Source of the DNA: an uncultured Gammaproteobacteria bacterium
Lineage (GTDB): Bacteria; Patescibacteriota; Patescibacteriia; 2-01-FULL-39-33
Assembly: GCA_964536975.1 (NCBI GenBank)
Contig: CAZHYS010000002.1
Location: 12,288 to 76,287, forward strand
Length of the DNA: 64,000 nucleotides
Direction of reading: 5' to 3'
Positions 10,403 through 62,318 of this stretch are shown one piece after another. The position numbers were made by a program, and so were the translations under genes. The number at the start of each line of letters is the position of its first letter. Positions within the stretch are counted from its first letter, which is position 1. The notes under the pieces are model-generated. The model was not told where the DNA came from. It saw nothing but the letters and a program-made list of their open reading frames with translations, and made no database searches.

Positions 10403-10690
10403 AATAAATTTCAAATTTGAAATTTTAAATTTCAAAACAATGGTTCGGCTTCGCTCACCACAAGTTTTTAATTTTCAAATCCGCCGCCGCGGATTGTTAA
10501 ATTGTCTAATTGCTATATTGTTTTTGTCTCTATTATGGAGATAAAACCCGACAATTTTACAATTTAACAATGTAACAATTCTTTAATTTGACTTTTTGAC
10601 TTTATAGACTTTAAGAACTCCTGCCTACCGCCTGCCTGCCGGTAGGCAGGGCAGGCAGGTTCAACTTTACGGACTTTATAAACTAAACCA

Positions 10691-12202: not shown

Positions 12203-12324
12203 CGGGCAGGGATTAGTAATCAGCGATTAGCGTTTAGCCTTTAGCGATTTGCGCCCCAGGCGCATCCCCTCCATATAGACTTTACGAACTTTACTGACTT
12301 TATAGACTTTCGACTTTCCGGTTT

Positions 12325-13290
12325 TTACTTTTCGCCGCTATGAAACTTTTTGTGGACTTCCTTGAGATGGGGGTTGGTCAAGTGGGTGTAAATCTGAGTA
12401 GTAAGTATATTCTTGTGCCCCAAGAGTTCCTGAACACTGCGAAGATCGGCGCCCTGATTCAATAAATCTGTCGCGTAGCTATGGCGCAAGGTATGAGGCG
12501 TGGCGCTAATCGGCAAACCAGCCATGGCTGTGTATCGCTTGACCATCCTTTCAACTGATCTGATATTCAAACGATGTTCGTCTTTTTTGTCGGCGCTAGG
12601 ACGGTAATTGATAAATAGGGGAGGGCAGAGGTCATCTCTGGTCTGCAGATATTTGGCCAGCCAGCCCATTGACCGCCGGGAAAAATAAACCACTCGGCTG
12701 ACGCCGCCTTTACCAAAGATATTCAATTCGTAATCGGAAAATTTATTTTTCAACAAATCATTCTTATTGAATTGAGATATATTAAGCGACGTTAATTCTG
12801 ATACCCGCATCCCGGTAGAGAAGAGCGCCTCCAATATCGCTCGATCCCGCAAACCATCAACTGAAGATATGTCGGGCATCGCCAGCAGCTTTTCAATCTG
12901 TTCAAATTTCAAAAATTTTATTGCTTTGTCCTTGTCGGTTAATTTTGGCAATTTAACTTTATCTGCCGGCAGAGAAATAATATCTTTATCGGTAAAATAG
13001 CTCAAAAGATTACGTAAGGCGATCAAGTAATAGTTCTGGGTCGTCTTTTTGATATACTTGTCCTTATTATCCTTTTTTCGCGACAAATATAGACGATAAT
13101 CCCAAACATGGTCTGGGGTGAGCTCATGAGGCCTAAGATCGCTTAAATCGCGAATTTTGAGCCAATTGATGAACATCTTAAGGAAGTTATGATAATTGCG
13201 GGTAGAAGCCGGACTAAGGCCTTTTTCTACCTCACAGTAAGCCAGAAAATCAGGGATGTGCTTTATTATGGAAATAGTAGATTTTTTCAT
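12325..13290 (-). CDS. Tyrosine site-specific recombinase, XerC/XerD family
   Basis: C-terminal catalytic motifs HTLRHSYAT...LLGH...IYTHL. Confidence 0.8.
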   Translation of the reverse strand: MKKSTISIIKHIPDFLAYCEVEKGLSPASTRNYHNFLKMFINWLKIRDLSDLRPHELTPDHVWDYRLYLSRKKDNKDKYIKKTTQNYYLIALRNLLSYFTDKDIISLPADKVKLPKLTDKDKAIKFLKFEQIEKLLAMPDISSVDGLRDRAILEALFSTGMRVSELTSLNISQFNKNDLLKNKFSDYELNIFGKGGVSRVVYFSRRSMGWLAKYLQTRDDLCPPLFINYRPSADKKDEHRLNIRSVERMVKRYTAMAGLPISATPHTLRHSYATDLLNQGADLRSVQELLGHKNILTTQIYTHLTNPHLKEVHKKFHSGEK

Positions 13291-19169: not shown

Positions 19170-19349
19170 GGGAGTATGTTGATTAATTTCTAATTTTTAA
19201 TTTAAAATTTTAAAACAATTTTTAATGGTTCAGCTTCGTTCACCACAAGTTTTCGATTTAAAATTTACAATGAATTTTCAATTATCAATTTTTAAAATTA
19301 CTGATTACCGCCTTACAGACTTTTGACTTTATGGACTTTAGACTTTTGA

Positions 19350-21776
19350 CTACCTTACTTTTACATTATATTCCTTTTTTAGCTTGTCAACAACTTTATC
19401 GTGGACTTTTTGCGCCTCGGCGAGCTCCAAGGTTTTCTCTTCGTCGCGATAAACCACCCGAATCGCCAAAGCTTTTTTGCCTTCGGGAATGTCTTTGCCT
19501 CTAAAGACAGACAAAAACCTTGCCTCTCTGATGAGCGGATCAACACTCATGGCAGTCTCAACGACATTGCCGTACAACACCTCATCCCCGATCTCCATAG
19601 ACAAGTCCAATTCTATGCCGGGAAACTTCGGCAATGACCGGTAAGTCGGCGAGGGCTTGGCCAGTTTGGCCAGTTTTTCAAAATCAATATCAATTATGCC
19701 GACATCAGATTTAATACCAAATAGATGAAGTGCTTCGCGATCAACAATCCCGATCCGGCCAACACTCTCTTTTCCTTCGCTCGCCAAAATAGAAAAAACG
19801 CTGCCCGGTTGCCAGATCCGACTGCTCTCGCCATCAGCCGCCGCCAGAGAAAAATCCTTGATGTTTAATTTTTCCAACAGAACAGACAAGGCGCCCTTAG
19901 CCGCCAAAAATGCCTCCTCCCCTCCCCGGCCGGCAACAGCCAAACAGAGATTGGTAATTTCATCGGGCAGATCGTTTGGTTTATTCAAATACACCTTGCT
20001 CAATTCAAAAATGCTCATTTCCTTGTAACTGTTCTCATTGTCGGCAATCGCTTGCAAAATTCCGGGCACCAAAGACGTCCGCATATACTCAAAATCAACA
20101 TTGAGCGGATTGGATATTTTGACGTGGTCTTCCACTGACAAGCCGCAATTCTTGATTAATTTTTCCGAAATAAAGCTATAATTATAGTTTTCCGAAAAAC
20201 CCAAGCCGACGATGATGTCTTTGACCTTATCTTCCAGTTGAAAAGGAGAGACGGCGGCAACATCAACGGGAATTTCGCCAGCCGGCAATATCGCCGGCAG
20301 ATTGTGATAGCCGTAGACGCGAGCGATTTCTTCAATCAAATCATGCGGTCCCTCAATGTCACGATCGCGCCAATAAGGCACCTTCACTTTGATCTGTTTG
20401 TCCCCGGCCGCTCTAAATCCCAGATTATCCAAAATTTCTTTTATTCGCGCCGACTTTATTTCTACGCCCAATATTCGCCGAACATCTTCCAGCGCCAGTG
20501 TCAACTCTTTGGCTTTGAATTTGTAATCTTTTTCGTCAAAAATCTTGGACGCGACTTTCCCGCCCGCCAATTCCACTACTAGTTCCACCGCTCGCAATAA
20601 AGCAGGGGTGGTTCCCTCAGGATTAAGACCCTTTTCAAAAAGATTAGAGCTGTCTGAATGCAAATTCAGGACTCTGGCAGTCTTTCTAATGGAAACAGGA
20701 TCAAAGGTGGCCGCCTCCAAAACAATCGTTTTAGTGCCATCTGACACCGCGGATAGCTCTCCGCCCATGATACCGGCGACTGCCGCCGGATTCTTGCCAT
20801 CGGCAATAACCAGATTGCTACTGCCCAATTCATAAGTCTTTCCATCCAGCGCCAAAATTTTTTCACCCGATTTTGCAAGACGGACAATTATCTCCGCCTT
20901 ATTCTCCCTCCCATTTACAAGGGGAGGGACAGGGTGGGGTAATAATTTTTCATAATCAAAAACATGCATCGGCTGACCGAATTCCAACAGAATATAATTG
21001 GTGATATCTACCAGGTTATTAATCGGCCGCAAACCCGACGCCAATAGTCGCTGTTGCAGCCATAGCGGCGAAACATCCACTTTCACGCCGGTCATCACAA
21101 TCGCCTGATAGCGCGGGCAGAGTTTTGGTTCTTTGACTGTGACCTTCAGAGACGGGGCATGCCCGGTCTCTACGGAAGCAATTCTTAGATTCGGCTTTGG
21201 TTCGCGGTATAAAAACTTTTCGCCCATAATCGCCGCCGCCTCACGCGCCAACCCGATGACACTCATGGCATCCGGCCGATTGGAAGTAACCTCAATATCA
21301 AAAATATAATCCTCCACTGGCATCACTTTTTCAAACGGCAGACCGACTTTGAGGTAATCGGGCATAATATAAATACCGGTATGATCGTCGCCGACACCGA
21401 GCTCGCGCTGGCTGCACATCATCCCAAAGCTATCCACCCCGCGGAGTTTGGCTTCTTTCACTTCCATCTCCCCCACTCTGCCGCCGATTAACACCACCGG
21501 CACTTTCTGCCCGGCTTTGATATTCGGCGCGCCGCAAACTATCTGGAGCGGCTCTTTCTCGCCGATATCAACTTTGCAGACATGTAGCTTGTCGGCGTTC
21601 GGATGATTGTTTATTTCCAAAATCTCGCCCACAACCACCTTGGAAAATTTCGCTTCATTGTGATGAATAAAATCAACCGTCGGTCCGCTTTGCGACAGCG
21701 CTTTGGCAAAATCCGCGGCCGATTTTTTCGTCGCGATATGCTCTTTGAGCCAGTTGTAGGATATGTTGAGGTTCAT
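19350..21776 (-). CDS. pheT: Phenylalanyl-tRNA synthetase beta subunit
   Basis: 808 aa with a tRNA-binding N-domain HPNADKLHVCKVDIG. Confidence 0.9.
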   Translation of the reverse strand: MNLNISYNWLKEHIATKKSAADFAKALSQSGPTVDFIHHNEAKFSKVVVGEILEINNHPNADKLHVCKVDIGEKEPLQIVCGAPNIKAGQKVPVVLIGGRVGEMEVKEAKLRGVDSFGMMCSQRELGVGDDHTGIYIMPDYLKVGLPFEKVMPVEDYIFDIEVTSNRPDAMSVIGLAREAAAIMGEKFLYREPKPNLRIASVETGHAPSLKVTVKEPKLCPRYQAIVMTGVKVDVSPLWLQQRLLASGLRPINNLVDITNYILLEFGQPMHVFDYEKLLPHPVPPLVNGRENKAEIIVRLAKSGEKILALDGKTYELGSSNLVIADGKNPAAVAGIMGGELSAVSDGTKTIVLEAATFDPVSIRKTARVLNLHSDSSNLFEKGLNPEGTTPALLRAVELVVELAGGKVASKIFDEKDYKFKAKELTLALEDVRRILGVEIKSARIKEILDNLGFRAAGDKQIKVKVPYWRDRDIEGPHDLIEEIARVYGYHNLPAILPAGEIPVDVAAVSPFQLEDKVKDIIVGLGFSENYNYSFISEKLIKNCGLSVEDHVKISNPLNVDFEYMRTSLVPGILQAIADNENSYKEMSIFELSKVYLNKPNDLPDEITNLCLAVAGRGGEEAFLAAKGALSVLLEKLNIKDFSLAAADGESSRIWQPGSVFSILASEGKESVGRIGIVDREALHLFGIKSDVGIIDIDFEKLAKLAKPSPTYRSLPKFPGIELDLSMEIGDEVLYGNVVETAMSVDPLIREARFLSVFRGKDIPEGKKALAIRVVYRDEEKTLELAEAQKVHDKVVDKLKKEYNVKVR

Positions 21777-21908
21777 AGTTTAAGCGATTAGCTTTTAGCG
21801 TTTAGGGATTAGTAACTAGGAGTTAGGAGTTAGGAATTAGAGTCATTATTTGTCATTCCGACCGGAACGATCCGCCTCGGGCGGAAGAGATTAAAAAAAT
21901 CTTAATTT

Positions 21909-23441: not shown

Positions 23442-24183
23442 AAAAAAATAATTCTACTATTGATATTATACCACAAAAATTATCAGCAAAAAAATATCCG
23501 TAATTTGAAATCCCGTCCAGTCCCGAGAGATCGGGAGCGGGACGGGATCCGGAGAAAGTTGATCGCTCTGCGAAAACTTCACTTATAAAAAAGAAAAAAG
23601 ATTTCTTGATTGTGAATGTTGGAAGCAAAACGATATATTCAACTCCTCTCCAAAGATTATAACAATGAAAAAAAATAAAGACAATAAATATTTTTTGTCA
23701 AGAGGAAAAAAATAAAATATTGTGATCGGCAATCAGTAATAATTGTAGAGACGCGATTCATCGCGTCTGGAAGTAATTAGTAACGAGTAACCGGTAACGG
23801 AACTCGTAATAGTGTGTCATCCCGACTGAGGACGCCCCAAGCGGACGAGTGGAGCCTGCCTGCCGGCAGGCAGGAGTCCGTAAAGTCATAATGTCATAAA
23901 GTCCAAGGTCAATCACATTTGACTTTATAGACTTTATGGACTTTTGACTTTTAACCAAGCTGCTCAAACATAAAAGCGGCGCTGACAAGTCAGAACCGCT
24001 TTTATGTTTTTGAAATTTAACACTGCCATTTTGGCAGCTATGGGAAAGAAAAAAAATATTTGAAAGAGCCCTTTCCCGCTTAAACCGGCAATTCAAATTG
24101 CTGGCTTGAGCGGAATGAGGAGATAGATAGTCAAAGAGCGAATCTCTTTTTTCTCTATCTCCTCAAGTTGTTCGGAGGGGGTC

Positions 24184-25931: not shown

Positions 25932-26116
25932 AACTCAAAAAATCCCCTTAAACAAAAATCCACAATAAAACAGATAAAAATTAAAATAAATTTTCAATAA
26001 TTTAATTTTAAAATTACTAATTATAGACTTTACGAATGGTTCGGCTTCGCTCACCACAAGCTTTATGGACTTTTGACTTTACTGACTTTCGACTTTTAAC
26101 TGTTTAATCTTCCATG

Positions 26117-35116: not shown

Positions 35117-35524
35117 TCCAAACAAGCTGGATGACTGCCCGGGCTCAACCTAAAAAATTAAGCGCGGGAGGAAAGTCCGAACACCCTTTCCGAGCAATCG
35201 GAATGTCATGGCAATGGCTAACGGCCATCCGTTCCGCCGCGAGACGGAATGAGGACCAGTTCCACAGAGACAATACTATCCCGAATCTTTCGGGACAAAG
35301 GTGAAAAGTGTGAAGGTGTTTTAAATTGGGTCAGAGATATCTCCTCAACTTAAAGCTGCTTCACTCGGCCTCTGGCAACAGAGTGCCCGTGGTAAACTCT
35401 GCCTGGTGCAACCCCAAATACAGTCGGGGGCTTGAGCCGGCCAGTAATGACCGGCCCAGATAGATAGTCATCGCTTTGCTCTTATGGCAAAGAACAGAAT
35501 TCGGCTTACAAGCTTGTTGGGACG
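35117..35524 (+). ncRNA. rnpB: RNase P RNA, bacterial type A
   Basis: The P4 strands GGAAAGTCCGAAC and ACAGAATTCGGCTTA are present. The segments GTGCCCGTGGTAAACTCTGCC and GCTTGAGCCGGCC align to E. coli M1 RNA. The P1 ends are complementary and a terminator follows at 35524-35572. Confidence 0.85.
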
Positions 35525-39794: not shown

Positions 39795-40272
39795 AAATAA
39801 AAGCTGATAATACTAAACTATTATATCAGCCAAGAGAGAGAAAATCAAGAACACCGGGGTTGAGGGGTAGTAATTAGTAATCGATAATAATCGTGGAGAC
39901 GCGATAAGCTCGCGTCTAAAAGTAATCAGTAACGAGTAATCGGTAACGGAACTCGGCAGACAGTGTCATCGCGAGTCCGCCGTGGCGGACGTGGCGATCC
40001 CATATTTATATTGTCATCCCGACTGAGGACGCCCCAAGCGGACGAGTGGAGGGATCCCCTGCCTACCGGCAGGCAGGCTCCACTTGTCTGCTTGAGGCAC
40101 CTGTCCGCATTGGGTGGAGACTCGCAATGACAACAGTGACGGATTTAAAAATAAAAATCAAAAAAAATCACCCCCGCAATCGCTACAAAAAAGCAATTGC
40201 GGGGGCTAATGGGCTAAGGATCCAAAGGCAAAAAAATCCAAAGAACCTTTGCCTGCCTGCTGGCAGGCAAGT

Positions 40273-41113
40273 TCAAAGGGCTAATTCTTGCGGGACGGAC
40301 CAGGCGAAACCGCCACCGTCATACCACTGGCGGCCAGGATGGCCGTAATACGCGTGCAGCCGCCGACCAGTGTCGTAGCGGAGCGCGGCCAGGAGGCGCG
40401 GGCGGCCGCCAGAATCAGGGATGGGAGGATGCATGACGACGATGTACTGAAAACCAAGGGCTTTAATTTCCTCGTCCGTGAGATAATCGCGGATAAGGCA
40501 GCCAACCTCGGGGTTCGGATCGGTGAGGTTCTGACCGTTGGTAAATGCCCCGGTCTCGGCGTCTTGACGCATGTGCTGCGTCAGTCGCTCGTTGTCCCGC
40601 CAGAGCTTGGCTGGCAGAATGGCGATGCGGTGGACAACACCGGTGGTCGGCTGGAACTGTTTGGAGCGAAGGACGCTTTTGGCGTAATCGCTCAAGTCAT
40701 CGCCCTTCTGCTGGAAGTAAGTGATCCACTTTTTCCCTGTCCGTCCGGTAGTGGCGGGAAAGGTGATATAGATCACGCCGTTGGTGGCGACTGTCCACTT
40801 CGGTTTGAGACACTTCTGGTAATCCTCAACTGAGATGGTGCCTTGGGGGGCTGACTAGTGACGCCAGCATCTTAAAATCGACGACATATGGAACAAGGGG
40901 CGTGGAAGGGACGGCCGGGGTAGGACGGGCGGTGATGACCAAATCACCGGAATTTACCCGCCGGATTGCTTCATCCGGACTGTCGGCGCCGGTCTCTCTC
41001 ATAATATTTTTGACCAACGCGTTGAGCTTACCCAACCCGGGTAGCACCTCCATAATGGCAAGTCGCGGCTTCGCCCTTTCCGTTCCCTGATTTTCTGCGT
41101 CTCTATTTCCCAT
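40273..41113 (-). pseudogene. GC-rich foreign ORF split by a frameshift or stop (95-aa and 167-aa pieces)
   Basis: The two minus-strand ORFs are adjacent but in different frames. An in-frame TAG at 40855-40857 interrupts the downstream frame. GC content is far above the flanks. Confidence 0.35.
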
Positions 41114-41228
41114 GATTATCTCCTCACTCGCTCAATTGCGAGTTTCTGTTTTCCCTCTCATCCGAGGGCAGAACCACGGCTACCACAGTAGCAGCCACAG
41201 CCAAAAGATTTCAATAAAGTCCTCCCGT

Positions 41229-41440
41229 GTCATCCCGACTGAAGCGATCCGCCTCGGGCGGAGAGCGAAATGGAGGGATCCCTCCATGCGTTCATCCCGA
41301 GTACTCGGGACTCACTTAGTCGGGATGACACTATAATCAATATCTTTTGGCTATGGCCGCTTTTTTTACCAATTATTGTTTCAAGGTACTTATATATAAT
41401 TATAACACGCCTTAAATGTTTTGTCAATGGCAACCCAATA
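41229..41440. mobile_element. MITE-like palindromic element (R5) plus a shared ~100-bp tail
   Basis: It has terminal inverted repeats GTCATCCCGAC...GTCGGGATGAC and a near-copy at 47204-47450. Confidence 0.5.
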
Positions 41441-41480
41441 TTTTGTTTAAAATAAGGAAAAAAAATAAAAAAATTGTTAA

Positions 41481-41693
41481 ATTGTCCGCCGCGGCGGATT
41501 GTCAAATCGTCATTAACTCCCGAATTTAGAGTCAACACCCAACAATATAACAATATGACAATTTAACAATTGCCGTTTTAAAATTGAAGCATTGAAAACT
41601 TGTGGTGAGCGAAGCCGAACCATTCATTGAAAATTTAAAATTATAAATTAGAAATTTTATTAGAAATTAGACATTAGAAATTAGAAATTTTTC
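41481..41693. repeat. Left inverted repeat flanking murJ; perfect or near-perfect reverse complement of 43576-43789
   Basis: I reverse-complemented one arm and compared it base-for-base by eye with the other over ~213 bp. Each arm contains the R4 palindrome, the R1 core, and TAGAAAT-type heptamer repeats. Confidence 0.7.
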
Positions 41694-41723
41694 TAACTCC
41701 TAATCCCTAAACGCCAATCGCTG

Positions 41724-43445
41724 TTATACCCCTTCTCCTTCCCTCATCACATCTTCGGCCACCGCTGGACTGACCTTCTTGAGTAGTTTCTTCCTCATTG
41801 ACGCGACAAAAATCGCCATCTCTTCCATATTTAGCAGCCAGCCAAACAGCCAATAGCCAAGCATTCCGCCGCCGCCGGCGATTCCGCCTTGCAATAAAAT
41901 TCCCAAAAAAGTATCAGTGGCCACATATACATTAAGCGCCTGAAGCAAGCTGTAAGTAATCAGCCCGGCGGCCAAAGAAGCGAATAAAATCCTAATTGAT
42001 GAATCAACGATTTTCCGGCCGTCCAATCGGCCGATTTTAAACTTAAGCCAAATCATCAGCAGAATCAGATTGACAACCGAAGAAGCGCCAATCGCCGCCG
42101 GCAAAGCAAGAATGCGCAAGTCCCCCACTTCCCACAAATCAGCGATTTTTAGGATAGCGACAGTAAAAAAAGAAAACCAATTATCAAAACTGAATATCCA
42201 GCGGAAAAAGAATAACGCCGCCAAATTCGCCGCCAACGAAAAAACTCCGATATAAAAGGGTGTCCGACTGTCATGCAAGGCATAAAAAGCGCGAATCAGC
42301 AGCGGTAAGGCGCTCTGGGCAAACAAGCTCAAGGCAAAAATTGCCAGACTGGCGGCGGTCAACCGCGTGTCCAGCCAGTCAAACTGGCCGGCACCGAGAA
42401 TAACTCTGACGATTTGCGCCCTTAGCACGTAAAACAGAATTGACACCGGCACGATCAAAAATAGCACCTGACGGAAAGTGACAGAAAAAGTTTCAACGAA
42501 TCCGGTTAAATTCTTTTTTGCCGCAAGCAGAGACAGAGCCGGCAAAGCCGCCACCGCGAAAGAAACGCCAAAAATTCCCAAGGGAAAACTTTGCAAATTA
42601 TTGGCCAAATTAAAAATCGCCAATGAGCCGACGGCCAAAGTGGAAGCGACCATGGTTACTGTCAAAATATTTACCTGATTGATTACCAGCGTCAAGGTGC
42701 GCGGGATCATCATCCGGCCGACCAAGCGGACGTTTTTGTCTTTTAACCCAAAAATCGGCGCGTAGCGATAGCCGGAGGAAAAAACTGTCGGCAATTGGAC
42801 CAACAGATGCATTGCCGCGCCCAAAACCACGCCCCAGGCCAAACCATAAAGTCCCCACTCGGGAACAAAATAAATCGCGCCGATGATAATGCCGATGTTA
42901 TAAAAAATCGGCGCGAGCGAATAAGCGAAAAATTGTTTGAATGATTGGAGAATTGAGCCAATCACCGCCGAAATGCCCAAAATCAGCGGGCTCAAAAACA
43001 TTATCCGTGACAATTGCGTCACCAGCGCCAATTTTTCCTCATCAAATCCGGGCGTAATTAGTGGCATTATTTGAGGAGCAAAAACAAAAAAAATTCCGCA
43101 AATTATTACCAGCCCGGCAATCACCAAATTCAAAATGCTATTTATCAGCCGCCAAGCTTCTTTTTTCTTGCCGCTTAGAAACGAGCTATTCTCTATCAGT
43201 CCGGTAAACACCGGGATTAGGCCGGCAGAAATCGCGCCCAAAACCAAAAGATTATACACCAAATCTGGCAGACGAAATGCCGCGTAATAAATATCCAGTT
43301 CGTTGCCCGCGCCAAAATGCGACGCCAGAATCCGGTCGCGAAAAATGCCGAGAAACCGGCTGACCAAAGACAGGGCGCCGATGATGATCGCCGCCGAAGT
43401 AATTGTCCTGGCTTGGGAATTAATAATTTTTTTGAACCCAAACAT
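41724..43445 (-). CDS. murJ: Lipid II flippase MurJ
   Basis: 573 aa, a multi-pass MviN/MurJ family protein with the N-terminus RFLGIFRDRILASHFGAG. Confidence 0.85.
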   Translation of the reverse strand: MFGFKKIINSQARTITSAAIIIGALSLVSRFLGIFRDRILASHFGAGNELDIYYAAFRLPDLVYNLLVLGAISAGLIPVFTGLIENSSFLSGKKKEAWRLINSILNLVIAGLVIICGIFFVFAPQIMPLITPGFDEEKLALVTQLSRIMFLSPLILGISAVIGSILQSFKQFFAYSLAPIFYNIGIIIGAIYFVPEWGLYGLAWGVVLGAAMHLLVQLPTVFSSGYRYAPIFGLKDKNVRLVGRMMIPRTLTLVINQVNILTVTMVASTLAVGSLAIFNLANNLQSFPLGIFGVSFAVAALPALSLLAAKKNLTGFVETFSVTFRQVLFLIVPVSILFYVLRAQIVRVILGAGQFDWLDTRLTAASLAIFALSLFAQSALPLLIRAFYALHDSRTPFYIGVFSLAANLAALFFFRWIFSFDNWFSFFTVAILKIADLWEVGDLRILALPAAIGASSVVNLILLMIWLKFKIGRLDGRKIVDSSIRILFASLAAGLITYSLLQALNVYVATDTFLGILLQGGIAGGGGMLGYWLFGWLLNMEEMAIFVASMRKKLLKKVSPAVAEDVMREGEGV

Positions 43446-43575
43446 TGTCTGGCTGTATAAAAACCGTTAACTTAATTTTGATTTGGCGATTAGAGCGACC
43501 ACCACACCGACAAAAATAATGCCAAAAATTACGTAGGTCATGGGCTAGGAATTAGGAGTTAGGGATTAGGGATTG

Positions 43576-43789
43576 GAAAAATTTCTAATTTCTAATGTCT
43601 AATTTCTAATAAAATTTCTAATTTATAATTTTAAATTTTCAATGAATGGTTCGGCTTCGCTCACCACAAGTTTTCAATGCTTCAATTTTAAAACGGCAAT
43701 TGTTAAATTGTCATATTGTTATATTGTTGGGTGTTGACTCTAAATTCGGGAGTTAATGACGATTTGACAATCCGCCGCGGCGGACAATT
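43576..43789. repeat. Right inverted repeat flanking murJ
   Basis: See the left arm at 41481-41693. Confidence 0.7.
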
Positions 43790-43827
43790 AGTCAATTTGA
43801 CTTTACAGACTTTATAAACTTTTGACT

Positions 43828-45888
43828 TTATGAACTCATTCTCACATCCACGATCTTCGCGCCTTTGCCTTTGACGCCGACCATCACCGGATTGAAATCC
43901 ATTTCCTTCACCTGCGGATAGCGCTGGGCAAAATCGCCAGTCTTTACCAATATCTCCGCCACTGCCTCAATATCCAGCGGTTTTTGGCCGCGCGCGCCGG
44001 CAAACATTTTGGCAATTTTTAGATCACCGATCATCGCTCTGGCGGCCGCTTTATCAAACGGCGCGATTCTAAACGCGACATCCTTGAATATCTCGGCGTA
44101 AATCCCGCCCGCGCCGACCATTACCAGCGGGCCGAATTGCGCGTCGCGCTTCATACCGACAATTACCTCAAACCCTTTGACCATCTCCCCCACCAAAAAC
44201 CCGTCCAGCGCCGGAATCTTTTTTTTCATCTCGGCGATGGCCGCTGTCATCTCCTCAGTGTTTTTTATGTTTAATTTCACTCCGCCGACATCAGACTTGT
44301 GAGTGATTTTTTCCGACACGATCTTTATCGCCACCGGCCAGCCGATTTTTTCCGCCGCGCCAATCGCCGCTTTTCCATCGGCAGCAAACTCGGCTCGGTG
44401 CAAATTGAATCCCAAAGGCAATAATAATTTTCTAGCGTCAATTTCCGTCAACACCGCTTGATTGAAAATCTTATTTTCCGACGGTTTGATTTTTGATTTT
44501 GCGATTGTTAGCGGCGCCATCCTCATCCGGCTATACTGCCACATCCGGCCGAGCGTTTCCACTGCCTGATTGGGAAAATTATATACCGGCAAAGAATATT
44601 TTTGAAAAATATCATAATGGCCGGTGATCTTGGCTTCACCCATGAAACACGCCAATACCGTCTTGGTCGTCTTTTTGGCCAGGCGGCCGACAATCTCCGC
44701 GGTCTTGGCCACATCCGTCATCTTCTGCGGGGTTAATGCCACTATGACCGCGTCAACATTTTTGTCCTTCAAAGCCTCGCCCAGCGCCCATTCATAGCGA
44801 TCAGCGCCGGCATCGCCCAGAACATCAATGGGATTTTTGACGCTGGCCGCCGGGGGCAATTTTGATTTTATTTTTTTGGCCGCGGACGCGGACAACTCCG
44901 CCAATTCCAATCCGTGCGCCGACAGCAAATCCGTCAGCAATACGCCCGGCCCGCCGGCGTTGGTGATAATAGCCACGCGCTTGCCCTTTGGCAGCGCCTG
45001 CCAAGAAAAGCCTTTGGCCAAATTGAAAAAATCTTCCAAATCCCTCGCCTCAATCAATCCTGATTGGGCGAAGGCCGTACTATAAGCTTGCGCTGAACCG
45101 GCCAATGAGCCAGTATGCGAGGACACTGCCTGGCTGCCCTTCTCTGTTTTGCCGGCTTTTAGCACAACCACTGGCTTTTGGCCGGAGACGCGACTCGCCG
45201 TTTCCATGAACCGCCGGCCATCCCTGATATCTTCAAGGTAAGATATGATCACTTTGACTTTATCGTCGCTTCCGCAATATTCCAATAAATCATTTTCGTC
45301 AATGTCTAATTTGTTTCCCATACTGACAAAATAAGCCAAGCCGACTTTTTGCGCCTCCGCCAAGTCCAAAAATGCCGTACCCAAAGCGCCCGATTGGGAA
45401 AGAAAGGCGACATTGCCCCGCGTCGGCGTGCCGGGCGCGAAAGAAGCGTTGACCGGCAAAAGAGCGGAAATAAAGCCAAGACAGTTTGGTCCCAAAATTC
45501 TGATCTGATATTTTCCGGCAATTTTTTTGATTTCATTTTCCAGCGCCACCCCCGCTTCGCCTAATTCGCGGAAGCCGGCGGAAATAATGACGATGTTTTG
45601 GCATTTCTTCTTGCCACATTCTTCCACTGCTTCGGCGACAAATTGAGCCGGAATGACGATTATCGCCAAATCCACCGGCCCAGGCACTTTGGCAATGGAC
45701 GGATAAGCCGAAAGACCGGCAATGTTTTTTTCATCCAAATTGATCGGATAGATTTTGCCGGCAAAACTGTTTTTGAGATTGACCACAATATCATTGCCGA
45801 CCTTGCCCGGTTTGGCCGACGCGCCAATGACCGCGACTGATTTGGGATTGAAAAAAGGTTTGAGATTGGTTTTATTTTTAATTGGCAT
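43828..45888 (-). CDS. ADP-forming acetyl-CoA synthetase (NDP-forming acyl-CoA synthetase, fused alpha/beta)
   Basis: A CoA-binding N-domain VAVIGASAKPGKVGN and an ATP-grasp C-domain. Confidence 0.8.
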   Translation of the reverse strand: MPIKNKTNLKPFFNPKSVAVIGASAKPGKVGNDIVVNLKNSFAGKIYPINLDEKNIAGLSAYPSIAKVPGPVDLAIIVIPAQFVAEAVEECGKKKCQNIVIISAGFRELGEAGVALENEIKKIAGKYQIRILGPNCLGFISALLPVNASFAPGTPTRGNVAFLSQSGALGTAFLDLAEAQKVGLAYFVSMGNKLDIDENDLLEYCGSDDKVKVIISYLEDIRDGRRFMETASRVSGQKPVVVLKAGKTEKGSQAVSSHTGSLAGSAQAYSTAFAQSGLIEARDLEDFFNLAKGFSWQALPKGKRVAIITNAGGPGVLLTDLLSAHGLELAELSASAAKKIKSKLPPAASVKNPIDVLGDAGADRYEWALGEALKDKNVDAVIVALTPQKMTDVAKTAEIVGRLAKKTTKTVLACFMGEAKITGHYDIFQKYSLPVYNFPNQAVETLGRMWQYSRMRMAPLTIAKSKIKPSENKIFNQAVLTEIDARKLLLPLGFNLHRAEFAADGKAAIGAAEKIGWPVAIKIVSEKITHKSDVGGVKLNIKNTEEMTAAIAEMKKKIPALDGFLVGEMVKGFEVIVGMKRDAQFGPLVMVGAGGIYAEIFKDVAFRIAPFDKAAARAMIGDLKIAKMFAGARGQKPLDIEAVAEILVKTGDFAQRYPQVKEMDFNPVMVGVKGKGAKIVDVRMSS

Positions 45889-46041
45889 ACCGCATTGACT
45901 TTATAAATGGTTCGACTTCGCTCACCACAAGCTTTACGAACTTTATGACTTTTGACTTTATGAACTATCTCCATTCTACCACAAATTTTAAGATAAAAAA
46001 ACGCCCGCGCTTCTCTTCCGTGAGAAACGCGGGGTAATTGT

Positions 46042-46407
46042 CTACTTAGTTGCCATATCGCACAGCAACTTAGTCATGTCACTGCCGATAGCAGCCGCTT
46101 CTTCCGGCGGCAACGGCTTGGCAAACAGAAATGTCGCTTTCGTGCCGGCTGCCGGCATTTCTATCTGGACTGGATAGTAGCCGACGCGTTGAAATCTGTC
46201 CGCGTTGTCTTGGTGGGGAAAAACAATCACGAAACTTTCCCCGAAGAACAACGCTGATTTCACCGGCGATTGTCCTGCCCGCGCCCGGCCATTCTCTTCA
46301 AAAAACAAGACGCCTTTGAATATGATTTGCGAACCACCTAAGACACTCATTCCTTCTGTCCTCCTAATCTTATTTTCCGTCATAATTATATTCAGCGCCG
46401 ATCTCAC
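46042..46407 (-). CDS. Hypothetical protein
   Basis: A 121-aa ORF in a GC-elevated insert. Confidence 0.3.
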   Translation of the reverse strand: MRSALNIIMTENKIRRTEGMSVLGGSQIIFKGVLFFEENGRARAGQSPVKSALFFGESFVIVFPHQDNADRFQRVGYYPVQIEMPAAGTKATFLFAKPLPPEEAAAIGSDMTKLLCDMATK

Positions 46408-46492
46408 ATCAATCGACGCTTAAGCCGCAACAGACAAATCCAAAGGGCTAAGGATCCAAGGGCTTAATCCCAAAGGATCTTAGCGCTAAGGA

Positions 46493-47128
46493 CTAGTTAC
46501 TTGCGGGCACCGCAGCCGGATCATCGCCGTTAAAGTCGTGGACAAGCCAGTTGCAGTGCCAGTGCCACCCGCCGCCGCGCCAGACGAGGTAACGGACGCG
46601 CAAGTAGCCATCCGAGCCGCGATAGATGGTACCCCAGAAGAATATGGCTTTGCCCTTCCATTCTTCCGGAATGAGCTCGGGATGAGCCAGGAGGTAGTCC
46701 AAGAGACAGGCGTTGTAGACCGGCTTGCCGTTGAGCTTCTTACGAAGCTTGTTGCCGACGATCACACCGCCATTCTTTTGTTTTTCGTCCAGGTAGAGCA
46801 CTACCTTGGACGGATCCCACTCCATTTGACCGCCCTTGATGTGCTCTTCTACTTGCCAACCATCCGGTACGAACGGGTCGGCGTCCAGATCAATGAGGTG
46901 CTTTTGTTTGAACCCACCATCAAGTGAAGACAAAAAATCGGTAAGCTCCGCCGATTTTTCAATCCAGCTTTGTGCTACGGCCGATTCCAAAATCGGCACG
47001 CCGCGAATAAGTTGGACGATAAACTCTCGCCACTGGCGGAGAGCTTTTTTGACCGCCACTTTAACAATGCAGTCAACCTCTTCCTGAGTATACATCTTTT
47101 CTTTTGAGGCTTGTTCCGTTTTTTTCAC
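46493..47128 (-). CDS. Hypothetical protein with a Trp-rich C-terminus
   Basis: 211 aa in a GC-elevated insert. I recognise no family. Confidence 0.4.
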   Translation of the reverse strand: MKKTEQASKEKMYTQEEVDCIVKVAVKKALRQWREFIVQLIRGVPILESAVAQSWIEKSAELTDFLSSLDGGFKQKHLIDLDADPFVPDGWQVEEHIKGGQMEWDPSKVVLYLDEKQKNGGVIVGNKLRKKLNGKPVYNACLLDYLLAHPELIPEEWKGKAIFFWGTIYRGSDGYLRVRYLVWRGGGWHWHCNWLVHDFNGDDPAAVPASN

Positions 47129-47203
47129 GGCTTATTCCTCCTTCTTAGTACGCGCCAGCGGGCTGCCCAATGCAGCCATAGCCAGAAAATACCAATTGTA
47201 GCG

Positions 47204-47450
47204 TCATCCCGACTAAGTGAAGCCCTCCCGTCCCGAGTGCCCGGGACGGGAGGGACGAACGCATGGAGGGATCCCTCCACGGAGTTTACCCTGAGCGTAG
47301 TCGAAGGGGTCGGGATGACACGGGAGGACTTTATCAAGATAATATTTCAGTATCTTTTGGCTATGGCCGTTTTTTTGCCAATAATTGCTTGTAAGGTACT
47401 AATATATAATTATAGCATATCTAAAATATTTTGTCAATAGTTAAATCAGC
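47204..47450. mobile_element. Second copy of the MITE-like R5 element with an inverted core
   Basis: It has the same terminal repeats and tail as 41229-41440. The central segment is in the opposite orientation. Confidence 0.5.
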
Positions 47451-48154
47451 TAAAAATAATAAAAGTGGCTAAAATTAGAGAAAAAATATATCACCATAAA
47501 TCTACAAATCAGCCGCGGCATCTGCCTCCTCTATAGGCGCTTGCCAGCCTTTGGCGGGGACGAGCGCCCGTAATGGGGACGGTTTCCAATGATTGGATTA
47601 TTGTGTTTTATGCGACCATTAATAAATCTTGTGCTAATTTTATGCGAAAGCGAGCGCTAAAAATTTTCGCAAGCGAAGCGTCAGAAAATTTTAGCGAGCG
47701 AAGCATAAAATTTAGCCATGATTTATTACCGGTCGCGACTTTTGCGCCACTTTTCTAGAAAAGTGGCATAAAAAAATAATTTATTTTTAAAATAAGATCG
47801 CCACGTCCGCCATTGCGCCTGTCCGCCTTGGGTGGAGACTCGCGATGACACGACTTGCCGAGTTCCGTAAAAACGCCCCGGCAGAGTGTTCCTGTGCTGG
47901 CGCAATTAAATTTTAATTTCATCAAAAAGAGACGCCCCGAATATTCGGGACGTCTCTGCAAATTGGGCGGGGGCATCCGCCTCCGCGCGAGCTACGGCGA
48001 GACAAGCGCCCCGCCCCTACAAATATTTTTGCTCCGTGTTATTTGATTTTCTTGGTTCCGTAAAGACGTTGCGTCGCGACGTCTCTACAAAATTCCTATT
48101 ACTGATTACCGATTACAGATTACAGATTACAGATTACTGGTTACTAATTATTTA

Positions 48155-53905: not shown

Positions 53906-54086
53906 AGTTTTGCTTAGTTTATTATTTAAATTTATTAACGACCTTTAAATTAGTCAGGAGTCTAAAGTCATAGAGTCTATAAAGTCAAAATGCAACTGAC
54001 TTTGGACTCCATGGCTTTCGACTTTATGGACTTTACAGACTTTTGACTTTATAGACTTTAGGCTTGTTTATATTATAACACACTTT

Positions 54087-61425: not shown

Positions 61426-62124
61426 TTATTTATTAAAAAATTTACCCAACTTCTCCACTCTTATCGCGTCCTTCGCCTCAAACTCCCCCACTCTGCTTCG
61501 TTCCAAATCAGACAAATAACCGCCGACACCCAGCTCCTGGCCAATATCGCGAGCCAAAGCGCGAATGTATGTCCCCTTGCCACAAATGACTTTTATCCGC
61601 AAATCAGGATATTTATATTTTAAAATTTTTATTTCCCTGATTTCCACCGGTCGAGGCAAAAGTTCCACCTCCTTGCCGGCGCGAGCGGATTTATACGCTC
61701 GCCTCCCCTTCACTTTTATCGCGCTAAACTGCGGCGGAATCTGATTGATCTGCCCGACGAATTGTTTTATTATTTTTTCAATTTTAATTTTACTGACGAT
61801 TCGACTCCGCTCACCACAAGCTTTACGGACTTTTGACTTTATGGACTTTATAGACTTAATTCCTTCTTCATCATCAGTCGTACTCGTCATGCCCAATCTA
61901 ATGTCAGCAATGTATTCTTTTTCCTGGCCGACGATTTCCGACAGTTGCCTGGTTGCTTCGCGGCCGACGCCAATCACCAAAACGCCGCTGGCCAAAGGAT
62001 CCAGAGTGCCGGCATGACCGACTTTTTTGACTCCGGACAATTTTCTCACTCTGGCGACAATATCAAAAGAGGTCGGCCCCTTCGGCTTGTAAATACCAAA
62101 GATATTTTTAGTTTTGACATCCAT
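61426..62124 (-). CDS. truB: tRNA pseudouridine(55) synthase carrying an in-frame repeat insertion
   Basis: KPKGPTSFDIV...HAGTLDPLASGVL...TTDD. The start at 62124 (MDVKTK) is preferred over the upstream ATG at 62160 in the ORF track. Confidence 0.85.
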   Translation of the reverse strand: MDVKTKNIFGIYKPKGPTSFDIVARVRKLSGVKKVGHAGTLDPLASGVLVIGVGREATRQLSEIVGQEKEYIADIRLGMTSTTDDEEGIKSIKSIKSKVRKACGERSRIVSKIKIEKIIKQFVGQINQIPPQFSAIKVKGRRAYKSARAGKEVELLPRPVEIREIKILKYKYPDLRIKVICGKGTYIRALARDIGQELGVGGYLSDLERSRVGEFEAKDAIRVEKLGKFFNK

Positions 62125-62318
62125 ATTAAATTTGCTGCGCTCTAATATTCTTGCTGCCACCGCTCAGGGCAAGCTCCTTCGGCTTGTAAATACCAAAGAT
62201 ATTTTTAGTTTTGACATCCATATTAAATTTGCTGCGCTCTAATATTCTTGCTGCCACCGCTCAGGGCAAGCTCCTTCGGCTTGTAAATACCAAAGATATT
62301 TTTAGTTTCTTTCTCCAT
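62086..62318. repeat. 97-bp tandem direct repeat, two perfect units plus a diverged partial third
   Basis: A repeat marker recurs at 62087, 62184 and 62281, giving a period of 97. Each unit contains the truB start codon and its first 15 codons. Confidence 0.8.

What the first reader, a model, noticed from the sequence alone, without database searches (positions are those of the whole stretch)
41481..43789. murJ is bracketed by two ~213-bp inverted repeats that look identical
I reverse-complemented 41481-41693 and compared it base-for-base with 43576-43789. I found no mismatch over ~213 bp. The two arms enclose the essential lipid II flippase gene plus short flanks. Other intergenic copies of the same element in this window are clearly diverged. 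Identical arms therefore imply very recent transposition of a non-autonomous element, or ongoing gene conversion or inversion between the arms. Each arm carries a TTGACA-17-TTAAAAT promoter-like site reading inward. If real, murJ would always receive one sense and one antisense promoter, whichever way the segment sits.
Basis: seen in the sequence. Interest (0 to 1): 0.75.

Follow-up and report, generated by a model that had tools for sequence, protein, structure and literature searches.

The report
Perfect inverted repeat pair bracketing murJ
The essential cell-wall gene murJ of an uncultivated Patescibacteria (CPR) bacterium really is flanked by two identical 214-bp inverted copies of a repeat-rich spacer, but the evidence points to a recent local inverted duplication, not to a jumping element or a genetic switch.

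Summary
It is the only long inverted repeat in the 64-kb window. The arms enclose murJ and a conserved 24-aa small ORF.

Independent single-run assemblies from at least two projects break exactly k-1 bases into each arm. One is a strain with 2 SNPs in murJ. The structure is therefore real and shared by strain variants.

Three relatives keep the same acd-sORF-murJ-lepA order and orientation with short spacers and no arms. Both arms are lineage-specific additions, and murJ sits in its ancestral orientation.

The arms belong to a modular intergenic repeat family. The right arm has the family's usual orientation and full architecture. The left arm is the only inverted copy and is truncated.

There are no terminal inverted repeats, no target-site duplications, no other full-length copy and no adjacent recombinase. 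Zero differences is expected from recency alone.

Best reading: a recent inverted duplication with microhomology at its ends. Inversion, antisense transcription and RNA pairing are possible but untested.

Side finding: the 23-nt core inside the arms is identical across many phyla and inserts in-frame into essential genes.

The parts
43559..43798 (+). Right arm (perfect tract 43576-43789). It lies between the acd stop (43828) and the small ORF/murJ. It is a family member in the orientation shared by all other copies.
   Evidence: Architecture of heptamer array, 23-nt core, octamer array, then a GC palindrome.
41471..41710 (-). Left arm (perfect tract 41480-41693). It is an inverted copy starting 14 nt after the murJ stop codon, and is the only minus-strand copy of the family in the window.
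41724..43445 (-). murJ (lipid II flippase, 573 aa), in its ancestral orientation.
   Evidence: Pfam MurJ 1.6e-81. 80/65/66% identity to orthologs in syntenic loci L004/L003/L005.
43467..43541 (-). Conserved 24-aa hydrophobic small ORF (MTYVIFGIIFVGVVVALIAKSKLS) between the right arm and murJ.
   Evidence: Orthologous peptides lie directly upstream of murJ in L004, L003 and L005.
43648..43670 (+). 23-nt core GGTTCGGCTTCGCTCACCACAAG inside the right arm, flanked by 9-nt direct repeats TTTTCAATG.
41599..41621 (-). The same 23-nt core inside the left arm.
43685..43714 (-). Promoter-like site ATGACA-18-TAAAAT reading towards murJ (sense).
   Evidence: 10 of 12 matches, not enriched over shuffles.
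41555..41584 (+). The same promoter-like site in the left arm, reading into the 3' end of murJ (antisense).
43799..43822 (+). GACTTTAYA nonamer array just outside the right arm. It is part of the family architecture but was not copied to the left arm.
41458..41569 (-). Terminator-like 3' end of murJ. A long imperfect hairpin (UUGUUAAAUUGUC 41569-41557 pairing with GACAAUUUAACAA 41486-41474) crosses the arm's outer boundary and is followed by U7AU8 (41473-41458).
   Evidence: The whole 3' region folds with z = -3.85.
41399..41427 (-). Perfect sigma-70-type promoter (TTGACA-17-TATAAT with TG) just outside the left arm. It heads a 1.9-kb lineage-specific insertion with orphan ORFs 40826-41113 and 40273-40776.
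   Evidence: A paralogous promoter module lies at 47347-47438.

Best explanation
The two arms are the product of one recent, local inverted duplication, or an equivalent single copying event, of about 214 bp of a repeat-rich intergenic spacer.

The parent is the right arm. It is a member of a modular intergenic repeat family that had inserted between acd and the sORF-murJ pair. A copy was placed in inverted orientation immediately 3' of murJ. Its end points lie in short tandem arrays (TTAGGRR heptamers on the inner side, ACAATTT octamers on the outer side), and these arrays provide microhomology. The structure is fixed in the population and murJ has kept its ancestral orientation.

Shown here: the identity and extent of the arms; their absence from relatives; the family membership, orientation and truncation pattern; the lack of transposon hallmarks; the lack of a nearby invertase; and the presence of the structure in several read sets and two strain variants.

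Inferred: the copying mechanism, namely template switching or microhomology-mediated repair during replication. Also inferred are the consequences. Read in murJ's sense direction, the left arm gives a strongly folding 3' region ending in a hairpin plus U-run that probably terminates murJ. It also places a weak promoter-like site antisense to murJ. Any transcript covering both arms would pair over 214 nt. RecA could in principle invert the 1.9-kb segment. None of these effects needs to be selected.
For: - Arms are 214/214 identical, and all 6 mismatches of the 240-nt alignment sit in the outer 26 positions. If mismatches were spread uniformly this would have probability (26/240)^6, about 1.6e-6, so the perfect tract is one discrete event.
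- The junctions lie in heptamer and octamer arrays.
- Relatives L004, L003 and L005 keep pfkB-PPDK-acd-sORF-murJ-lepA-recJ on one strand, with no inverted repeat. In L004 the spacers are 145 and 114 bp, against 382 and 1,930 bp here.
- murJ identity to L004 (80%) lies within the range of its neighbours (62-89%), so it was inherited vertically.
- The core occurs 9 times in the window: 8 on the plus strand, and only the left arm on the minus strand.
- The right arm keeps the family's GACTTTAYA array just outside the copied tract, as do the long members at 10.4 and 19.2 kb. The left arm lacks it.
- No TIR or TSD. No other copy above 80% identity in 64 kb. The arm-specific 31-mer is absent from JGI metagenomes.
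- No recombinase lies nearer than a Xer-like gene at 12325-13290.
- Logan contigs from single runs equal window 41664-43605, ending 30 nt (k-1) inside each perfect tract, in 5+1 runs. A variant with 2 SNPs from another project ends at 41667/43605.
- Expected arm differences at strain-level divergence are 0.2-0.9.
Against: - The direction of copying (right to left) is inferred from architecture and orientation, not proven.
- The 12-nt and 6-nt matches just beyond the mismatched edges could instead be remnants of older diverged copies whose centres were homogenised by gene conversion.
- The outer-left junction (41470|41471) and the middle of the left arm are attested only by the source assembly. 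The ORFs next to that junction are not on record in other assemblies.
- Bubble-popping in the assembler could have erased small differences between the arms.
- Only 64 kb of the genome could be searched for further copies.
- No expression or read-level data could be examined.
Confidence: 0.6

Rival explanations
1. Selected pairing or insulation. The arms are kept identical by gene conversion because they work together. One version is a 214-bp RNA duplex that brackets sORF-murJ in a read-through acd-murJ transcript, forming an RNase III processing stem like that of rRNA operons. Another is paired promoter/terminator cassettes that insulate murJ from its neighbours.
For: In relatives the sORF starts only 22-45 nt after acd, so the ancestral genes were probably co-transcribed and the arm now interrupts that unit. 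The left arm in sense orientation folds well (z = -3.85) and ends in a hairpin plus U-run. Mismatches cluster at the edges, as expected at the ends of a conversion tract.
Against: The arms are absent from all three relatives, so there is no conservation and no covariation to support selection. Perfect identity is expected from recency alone. The right arm in sense orientation does not fold better than shuffles (z = -1.45). No transcript data are available, and RNase III was not looked for.
Confidence: 0.12
2. Two independent insertions of a about 240-bp non-autonomous mobile element (MITE-like), one on each side of murJ.
For: The arms belong to an interspersed intergenic repeat family. Its 23-nt core shows gain and loss at precise sites in other genomes. 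A 9-nt direct repeat TTTTCAATG flanks the core inside the arm.
Against: No terminal inverted repeats and no target-site duplication at the arm ends. No third full-length copy in 64 kb, and the arm-specific sequence is absent from JGI metagenomes. The next best copy is only 80% identical over 118 nt. Two random insertions landing 1.9 kb apart in about 1 Mb is unlikely. No transposase is in the window.
Confidence: 0.1
3. A gene-sized invertible segment. The 1.9-kb sORF-murJ segment flips between the arms, by RecA or a distant recombinase, and so changes murJ expression in part of the population.
For: Perfect 214-bp inverted repeats are adequate substrates for homologous recombination (established knowledge). 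A Xer-like tyrosine recombinase exists at 12325-13290. Both orientations would be invisible to k=31 assemblies.
Against: There is no adjacent invertase. The arms are far longer than recombinase sites. The enclosed gene is essential. The assembled orientation is the ancestral, co-directional one. Because the promoter-like sites lie in the arms and not in the segment, inversion would not change them. No read-level evidence exists.
Confidence: 0.07
4. Assembly artefact, whole or partial. The left arm, or its perfect identity, was created by the assembler through a collapsed or borrowed repeat or through bubble popping.
For: The source is a short-read metagenome-assembled genome. The middle of the left arm and its outer junction are seen only in that assembly.
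Against: Independent single-run assemblies from at least two projects and two strain variants contain both inner junctions and break exactly k-1 nt into each perfect tract, as a true inverted repeat predicts. Unique sequence continues on both outer sides in synteny with relatives.
Confidence: 0.06

Closest known systems
Invertons: invertible promoters or gene segments flipped by site-specific recombinases, such as Hin, Fim and the Bacteroides invertons detected with PhaseFinder (10.1101/2023.03.11.532203; PMC11602134; PMC11892184).
   Same: A DNA segment is bounded by inverted repeats, promoter-like sequences are involved, and the segment could in principle exist in two orientations.
   Different: Invertons rely on enzyme-mediated inversion of specific, mostly intergenic regions. 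Here the arms are 214-240 bp, no invertase is adjacent, and the segment is a whole essential gene. The promoter-like sites sit in the arms, so flipping would not move them. No second orientation has been observed.
Bacterial MITEs and small interspersed repeats: Correia, BOX, RUP, ERIC (PMC10969869; PMC3184786; PMC3049150).
   Same: Short, non-coding, AT-rich and modular intergenic repeats that occur in many copies, can carry sigma-70-like promoters and terminator-like hairpins, and can lie next to essential genes. The modular build recalls pneumococcal BOX elements.
   Different: The arms lack terminal inverted repeats and target-site duplications. Family members are mosaics of short tandem arrays around a 23-nt core and are not discrete units. 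The two identical copies are adjacent to each other, not dispersed.
Inverted segmental duplications, and RecA-dependent inversions between inverted repeats such as rRNA operons or IS copies (established knowledge of bacterial genome rearrangement).
   Same: Long, perfectly identical inverted repeats arise by duplication and are potential substrates for homologous inversion. Junctions in microhomology are typical of template-switch events.
   Different: The scale is very small (214-bp arms and a 1.9-kb segment), and the copied DNA is an intergenic repeat and not a gene or an IS.
rRNA operon processing stems cleaved by RNase III (established knowledge).
   Same: A gene is bracketed by long complementary sequences that would pair if both are in one transcript.
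   Different: There is no evidence that both arms are co-transcribed, no conservation and no covariation. The resemblance is purely formal.
Rickettsia palindromic elements (in-frame insertions into genes; PMC10969869). This comparison concerns only the 23-nt core inside the arms.
   Same: A short repeat is found both between genes and in-frame inside conserved genes, and is tolerated in protein loops.
   Different: The core is only 23-24 nt against about 150 bp, is not palindromic, and is identical across genomes with 34-68% GC.

Membership tests
MITE (miniature inverted-repeat transposable element) | Terminal inverted repeats at the two ends of each copy | tested here: not met
   Best end-to-end match is 14 of 40 for the perfect tract and 12 of 40 for the extended tract, against a shuffle mean of about 15 and a maximum of 21-22.
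MITE (miniature inverted-repeat transposable element) | Target-site duplication flanking each copy | tested here: not met
   Only 5-mers such as AAATT were found, inside low-complexity sequence, when the boundaries were shifted by up to 12 nt.
MITE (miniature inverted-repeat transposable element) | Several dispersed, near-identical full-length copies in the genome | tested here: inconclusive
   No third full-length copy in 64 kb, where the best is 80% over 118 nt. The arm-specific 31-mer is absent from JGI metagenomes. The rest of the genome was not available.
Inverton (recombinase-driven invertible segment) | Inverted repeats flanking the segment | tested here: met
   214-bp perfect arms, 240 nt at 98%. 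They are much longer than typical recombinase sites.
Inverton (recombinase-driven invertible segment) | A site-specific recombinase (invertase) encoded nearby | tested here: not met
   Flanking ORFs match no Pfam, NCBIfam or PHROG family. The only recombinase in the window is a Xer-like gene at 12325-13290, 28 kb away.
Inverton (recombinase-driven invertible segment) | Both orientations present in reads from one population | not testable with these tools
   Only k=31 assemblies that break at the arms were available. Raw reads could not be mapped.
Composite transposon | Insertion sequences with transposase genes at both ends | tested here: not met
   The arms are 240 bp and non-coding. There is no transposase in the window.
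Core-bearing intergenic repeat family of this genome (defined here) | The 23-nt core GGTTCGRCTYCGCTCACCACAAG flanked by arrays of 7-9-nt tandem repeats | tested here: met
   Both arms contain the exact core plus AATTTCT heptamer and AATTGTTA octamer arrays. Seven further members are in the window.
Intrinsic terminator (left arm read in murJ's sense direction) | A stable hairpin immediately followed by a U-run | tested here: met
   The stem 41569-41557 / 41486-41474 is followed directly by U7AU8 at 41473-41458, and the region folds with z = -3.85. The simple scanner missed it because its loop exceeds 8 nt. Function was not tested.
Any Rfam RNA family | A match to a curated covariance model | tested here: not met
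   Only RNase P at 35119-35524 reaches threshold in the window. Nothing was found in 41300-43900 at E<=5 except chance-level hits, and nothing at the core in 18 metagenome loci.

The most novel reading that the evidence does not exclude
The two arms act as a pair. In one version, a transcript reading from acd through murJ folds its two 214-nt complementary arms into a perfect duplex. That duplex would excise or stabilise the sORF-murJ message, much as an rRNA processing stem does. In the other version, homologous recombination flips the 1.9-kb segment, so that part of the population carries the essential flippase gene against read-through transcription. Either way, a recently copied repeat would have become a control device for cell-wall synthesis in a CPR bacterium.
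Probability: 0.1. Interest if true: 0.65.

Novelty: new variant of a known kind. Interest (0 to 1): 0.35.

Why it matters
As it stands, this is a clean, datable example of how repeat-rich spacers in a reduced CPR genome are copied and rearranged around an essential gene. It also warns that identical arms in a short-read MAG do not by themselves indicate a switch or a transposon.

If the arms proved to pair in RNA or to mediate inversion, murJ expression would be under an unusual structural control. That is directly testable with existing read sets.

The more far-reaching lead is the 23-nt core carried by the arms. It is an undescribed sequence that is identical across distant phyla, is gained and lost at precise sites, nests into its own centre, and sits in-frame in genes such as murD, lysS, tsaE and truB.

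Tried and rejected
- **Phage origin:** megablast of 41300-43950 against phage records found nothing.
- **Known RNA family:** Rfam gave nothing at gathering threshold on the window, at E-value threshold on the locus, or at gathering threshold on 18 metagenome loci, beyond RNase P and one tRNA.
- **Invertase or transposase next to the arms:** the orphan ORFs 40826-41113, 40273-40776, 40288-40833, 46042-46407 and 46493-47128 have no Pfam, NCBIfam or PHROG match. orf211 belongs to a family of more than 1,000 Patescibacteria hypothetical proteins with no known domain. orf167 and orf211 are not detectably related.
- **Confirming the outer-left junction in other assemblies:** orf95 and orf167 are not on record with those exact products.
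- **Finding sister strains with the other orientation:** there are no MurJ relatives between 80% and 100% identity. The exact-match contigs are all k=31 fragments.
- **Other copies of the whole arm:** none in JGI metagenomes.
- **Literature:** no paper holds the core sequence or its peptide translations.
- **tRNA-like reading of the core (T-arm plus acceptor):** considered by eye and dropped, because the upstream bases do not complete a T-stem and the A/G variation falls on the position that is nearly invariant in T-loops.
- **Split motif at truB:** I considered that the perfect 97-bp tandem repeat at truB is bounded by the two halves of a related motif. I did not pursue it, because the left half coincides with truB's own KPKG codons.
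Full report
**Observation.** The reverse complement of 41481-41693 matches 43576-43788 at 213 of 213 positions. The maximal perfect run is 214 bp, 41480-41693 against 43576-43789. A gap-free alignment extends to 240 nt at 98% (41471-41710 / 43559-43798). All six mismatches lie in the outer 26 positions. The perfect tracts are 1,882 bp apart. In the whole window this is the only long inverted repeat apart from weak family matches. The arms have 31% GC in a window of 45.5% GC.

**What is enclosed.** The segment holds murJ (41724-43445, minus strand, Pfam MurJ E=1.6e-81). It also holds a 24-aa hydrophobic ORF (43467-43541, minus; MTYVIFGIIFVGVVVALIAKSKLS). That small ORF is conserved directly upstream of murJ in three related genomes. 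Upstream on the same strand is an ADP-forming acetyl-CoA synthetase (acd, 43828-45888). Downstream are lepA and recJ.

**Real or artefact.** The organism is an uncultivated Patescibacteria (CPR) bacterium near Candidatus Buchananbacteria. The exact MurJ protein occurs on an NCBI contig of 99 kb, presumably the source, and on Logan single-run assemblies. Logan contig L001, seen in five runs, equals window 41664-43605. It ends exactly 30 nt (k-1 for k=31) inside each perfect tract. L002 ends at 41667/43605. This is what a true inverted repeat does to a de Bruijn graph.

A variant with two SNPs in murJ, from another project (SRR8925817, two runs), breaks at 41667/43605 as well. Both inner junctions are therefore in raw reads of at least two projects and two strain variants. 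The outer-left junction and the middle of the left arm are attested only by the source assembly, because the neighbouring ORFs are not on record elsewhere. Assembler bubble-popping could hide a few differences between the arms. Orientation cannot be read from k=31 contigs, since both orientations share all short k-mers.

**Comparison with relatives.** Three reference genomes carry pfkB-PPDK-acd-sORF-murJ-lepA-recJ-rnhA on one strand. These are L004 (MurJ 80% identical), L003 (65%) and L005 (66%). None has an inverted repeat around murJ. In L004 the acd-murJ and murJ-lepA spacers are 145 and 114 bp, against 382 and 1,930 bp here. The sORF starts 22-45 nt after acd in the relatives. MurJ's identity to L004 lies within the range of its neighbours (62-89%). 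So murJ was inherited vertically and sits in its ancestral orientation. Both arms are additions in this lineage.

The long murJ-lepA spacer also contains a perfect TTGACA-17-TATAAT promoter (41427-41399, minus). It contains two orphan ORFs of higher GC, 55-59%. A paralogous promoter and 5'-UTR module heads a second lineage-specific cassette between PPDK and acd (47169-47438).

**What the arms are made of.** Each arm is a mosaic with five parts:
- an AATTTCT heptamer array;
- a 23-nt GC-rich core, GGTTCGGCTTCGCTCACCACAAG, flanked by 9-nt direct repeats;
- a promoter-like site;
- an AATTGTTA octamer array;
- a GC palindrome, TCCGCCGCGGCGGA.

The core occurs nine times in the window. Short members at 2669, 9017, 26038, 45909 and 61798 are embedded in GACTTTAYA nonamer arrays. 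Long members at 10442 and 19227, and the right arm, add heptamer and octamer arrays and end in a nonamer array.

Eight of the nine cores are on the plus strand whatever the direction of the neighbouring genes. Only the left arm is inverted. The right arm still has its nonamer array just outside the copied tract (43799-43822), and the left arm has none. This makes the right arm the likely parent and the left arm a truncated inverted copy. The family is absent from 21.7 kb of the closest relative.

- *Transposition.* The arms have no terminal inverted repeats (14 of 40 matches, shuffles 15.3) and no target-site duplication beyond low-complexity 5-mers. There is no third full-length copy in 64 kb, and the best other copy is 80% over 118 nt. 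An arm-specific 31-mer is absent from JGI metagenomes. No transposase is in the window.
- *Recombinase-driven switch.* The flanking ORFs have no known domains. The only recombinase is a Xer-like gene 28 kb away.
They occur at chance frequency (4 found, 4.8 +/- 2.2 expected). They are not conserved in the other long family members. Because they lie in the arms, inversion would not change them, which argues against a switch.
- *Ongoing conversion.* Strain variants differ by 0.10% (L133) to 0.43% (L134). At those rates 0.2-0.9 differences are expected in 214 bp, and the probability of zero is 0.4-0.8. Recency alone is therefore enough.

**Most likely history and effect.** All mismatches of the 240-nt alignment sit at its two edges. 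Under uniform mutation that has probability about 1.6e-6, so the 214-bp tract is one discrete event. Its ends lie in TTAGGRR heptamers (inner) and ACAATTT octamers (outer). I read this as a recent inverted duplication by template switching, or microhomology-mediated repair, between short arrays. A single gene-conversion tract between older copies is the close alternative.

Read in murJ's sense direction, the left arm folds far better than shuffles (-67.2 kcal/mol, z = -3.85). It ends in a long hairpin (41569-41557 with 41486-41474) followed directly by U7AU8 (41473-41458). This is probably the murJ terminator. The right arm in sense orientation is unremarkable (z = -1.45). Antisense transcription, pairing of the two arms in one RNA, and RecA-mediated inversion are all possible consequences. 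None has evidence.

**Comparison with known systems.** The locus looks like an inverton in form. It fails the adjacent-recombinase criterion, and the two-orientation criterion could not be tested (10.1101/2023.03.11.532203; PMC11602134). It resembles Correia or BOX-type small repeats in being modular, intergenic and promoter-bearing, but it lacks the MITE hallmarks (PMC10969869; PMC3184786; PMC3049150). It is best filed as an inverted duplication of a member of an undescribed intergenic repeat family.

**Side finding.** The 23-nt core is not confined to this genome. The core appears in four settings:
- as the loop of GC-rich hairpins whose stems differ between genomes;
- inside arrays of 7-9-mers;
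- nested in the centre of a related motif;
- inside long ORFs, sense over antisense 42:12, mostly in the frame reading GS(T/A)(S/P)LTT.

Among 104 parsed MurD orthologs of 71-100% identity, the site after DHLNYY is empty in 79. It carries the 8-codon core in 15 and a core with a second motif nested in its centre in at least 5. It carries an unrelated repeat-derived insertion in 4. In this window the element is also in-frame in truB. Copies on one contig are co-oriented in 13 of 14 adjacent pairs, although several of these are tandem clusters. Neither Rfam nor the searchable literature has it. It behaves like a very small element that is gained and lost at precise sites, and its mechanism is unknown.

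**Verdict.** The interpretation as a transposon pair or a switch is not supported. A recent local inverted duplication is the best explanation (confidence 0.6). Interest in the bracket itself is moderate to low. The core element deserves its own study.

Noticed in passing
window 43648-43670, 41599-41621, 2669, 9017, 10442, 19227, 26038, 45909, 61798; loci L013-L132: The 23-nt core GGTTCGRCTYCGCTCACCACAAG is identical in at least 120 metagenome contigs of 34-68% GC. It appears as the loop of hairpins with covarying stems, inside 7-9-mer arrays, nested in the centre of a related motif (CCCTTCGACTT^CGCTCAGGGCAAG), and in-frame in genes. There is no Rfam or literature match.
   Followed up: partly
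L046, L105, L108 (MurD); L069 (LysRS); L110 (TsaE); L014/L060 (TolB-like); proteins P0241-P0360: The core is an 8-codon in-frame insertion (GSTSLTTS/G). It shows presence/absence polymorphism among close MurD orthologs: 79 empty, 15 with the core, at least 5 with a nested second motif, and 4 with a different repeat-derived insertion at the same site. It behaves like a tiny element that is gained and lost at precise sites.
   Followed up: partly
window 61780-61860 (inside truB, 61426-62160, minus): A family member (core plus nonamer array) lies in-frame inside truB. It encodes ...KSIKSIKSKVRKACGERSRIV... in the variable linker between the DxEG and QxPP motifs.
   Followed up: partly
window 62076-62308: A perfect 97-bp tandem repeat (2.4 copies, one mismatch) duplicates the 5' end of truB and its upstream region. 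This gives two extra short ORFs that start like TruB and stop after 31 codons. It is either another very recent duplication or an assembly problem.
   Followed up: partly
window 43467-43541 (minus); L004 9899-9973; L003 2656-2733; L005 7049-7126: A conserved 24-25-aa hydrophobic small ORF (M[TVA]Y[VW][IV][FI]GII[FI]V...KL[SG]) sits between acd and murJ in all four lineages. It is probably an unannotated small membrane protein co-expressed with MurJ.
   Followed up: partly
window 39850-41470 and 45980-48150: Two lineage-specific insertions lie in otherwise conserved spacers. They share a promoter and 5'-UTR module (41214-41428 and 47169-47438, 71-85% identical, part of it inverted), and each carries orphan ORFs of higher GC (50-59%). 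orf211 (46493-47128) belongs to a Patescibacteria hypothetical-protein family with more than 1,000 members and no known domain.
   Followed up: partly
window-wide intergenic regions (e.g. 10587-10613, 12277-12310, 19318-19351, 23881-23953, 26061-26101, 48098-48150, 54020-54060): Nearly every spacer contains arrays of 7-9-nt tandem repeats (GACTTTAYA, AATTTCT, ATTACAG, TTAGGRR). The closest relative has short, plain spacers at the syntenic sites that were compared.
   Followed up: no
window 41226-41335, 40010-40140, 21838-21885, 23761-23825, 47169-47334: A second repeat family with GTCATCCCGAC...GTCGGGATGAC inverted ends lies in 5'-UTR-like positions of several genes.
   Followed up: no
L012 (window 43776-45936): The single-run contig carrying acd ends 14 nt inside the right arm's perfect tract, not the 30 nt expected. 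It breaks within the palindrome TCCGCCGCGGCGGA, and the reason was not established. A strain variant or another copy of this module elsewhere in the genome could explain it.
   Followed up: no
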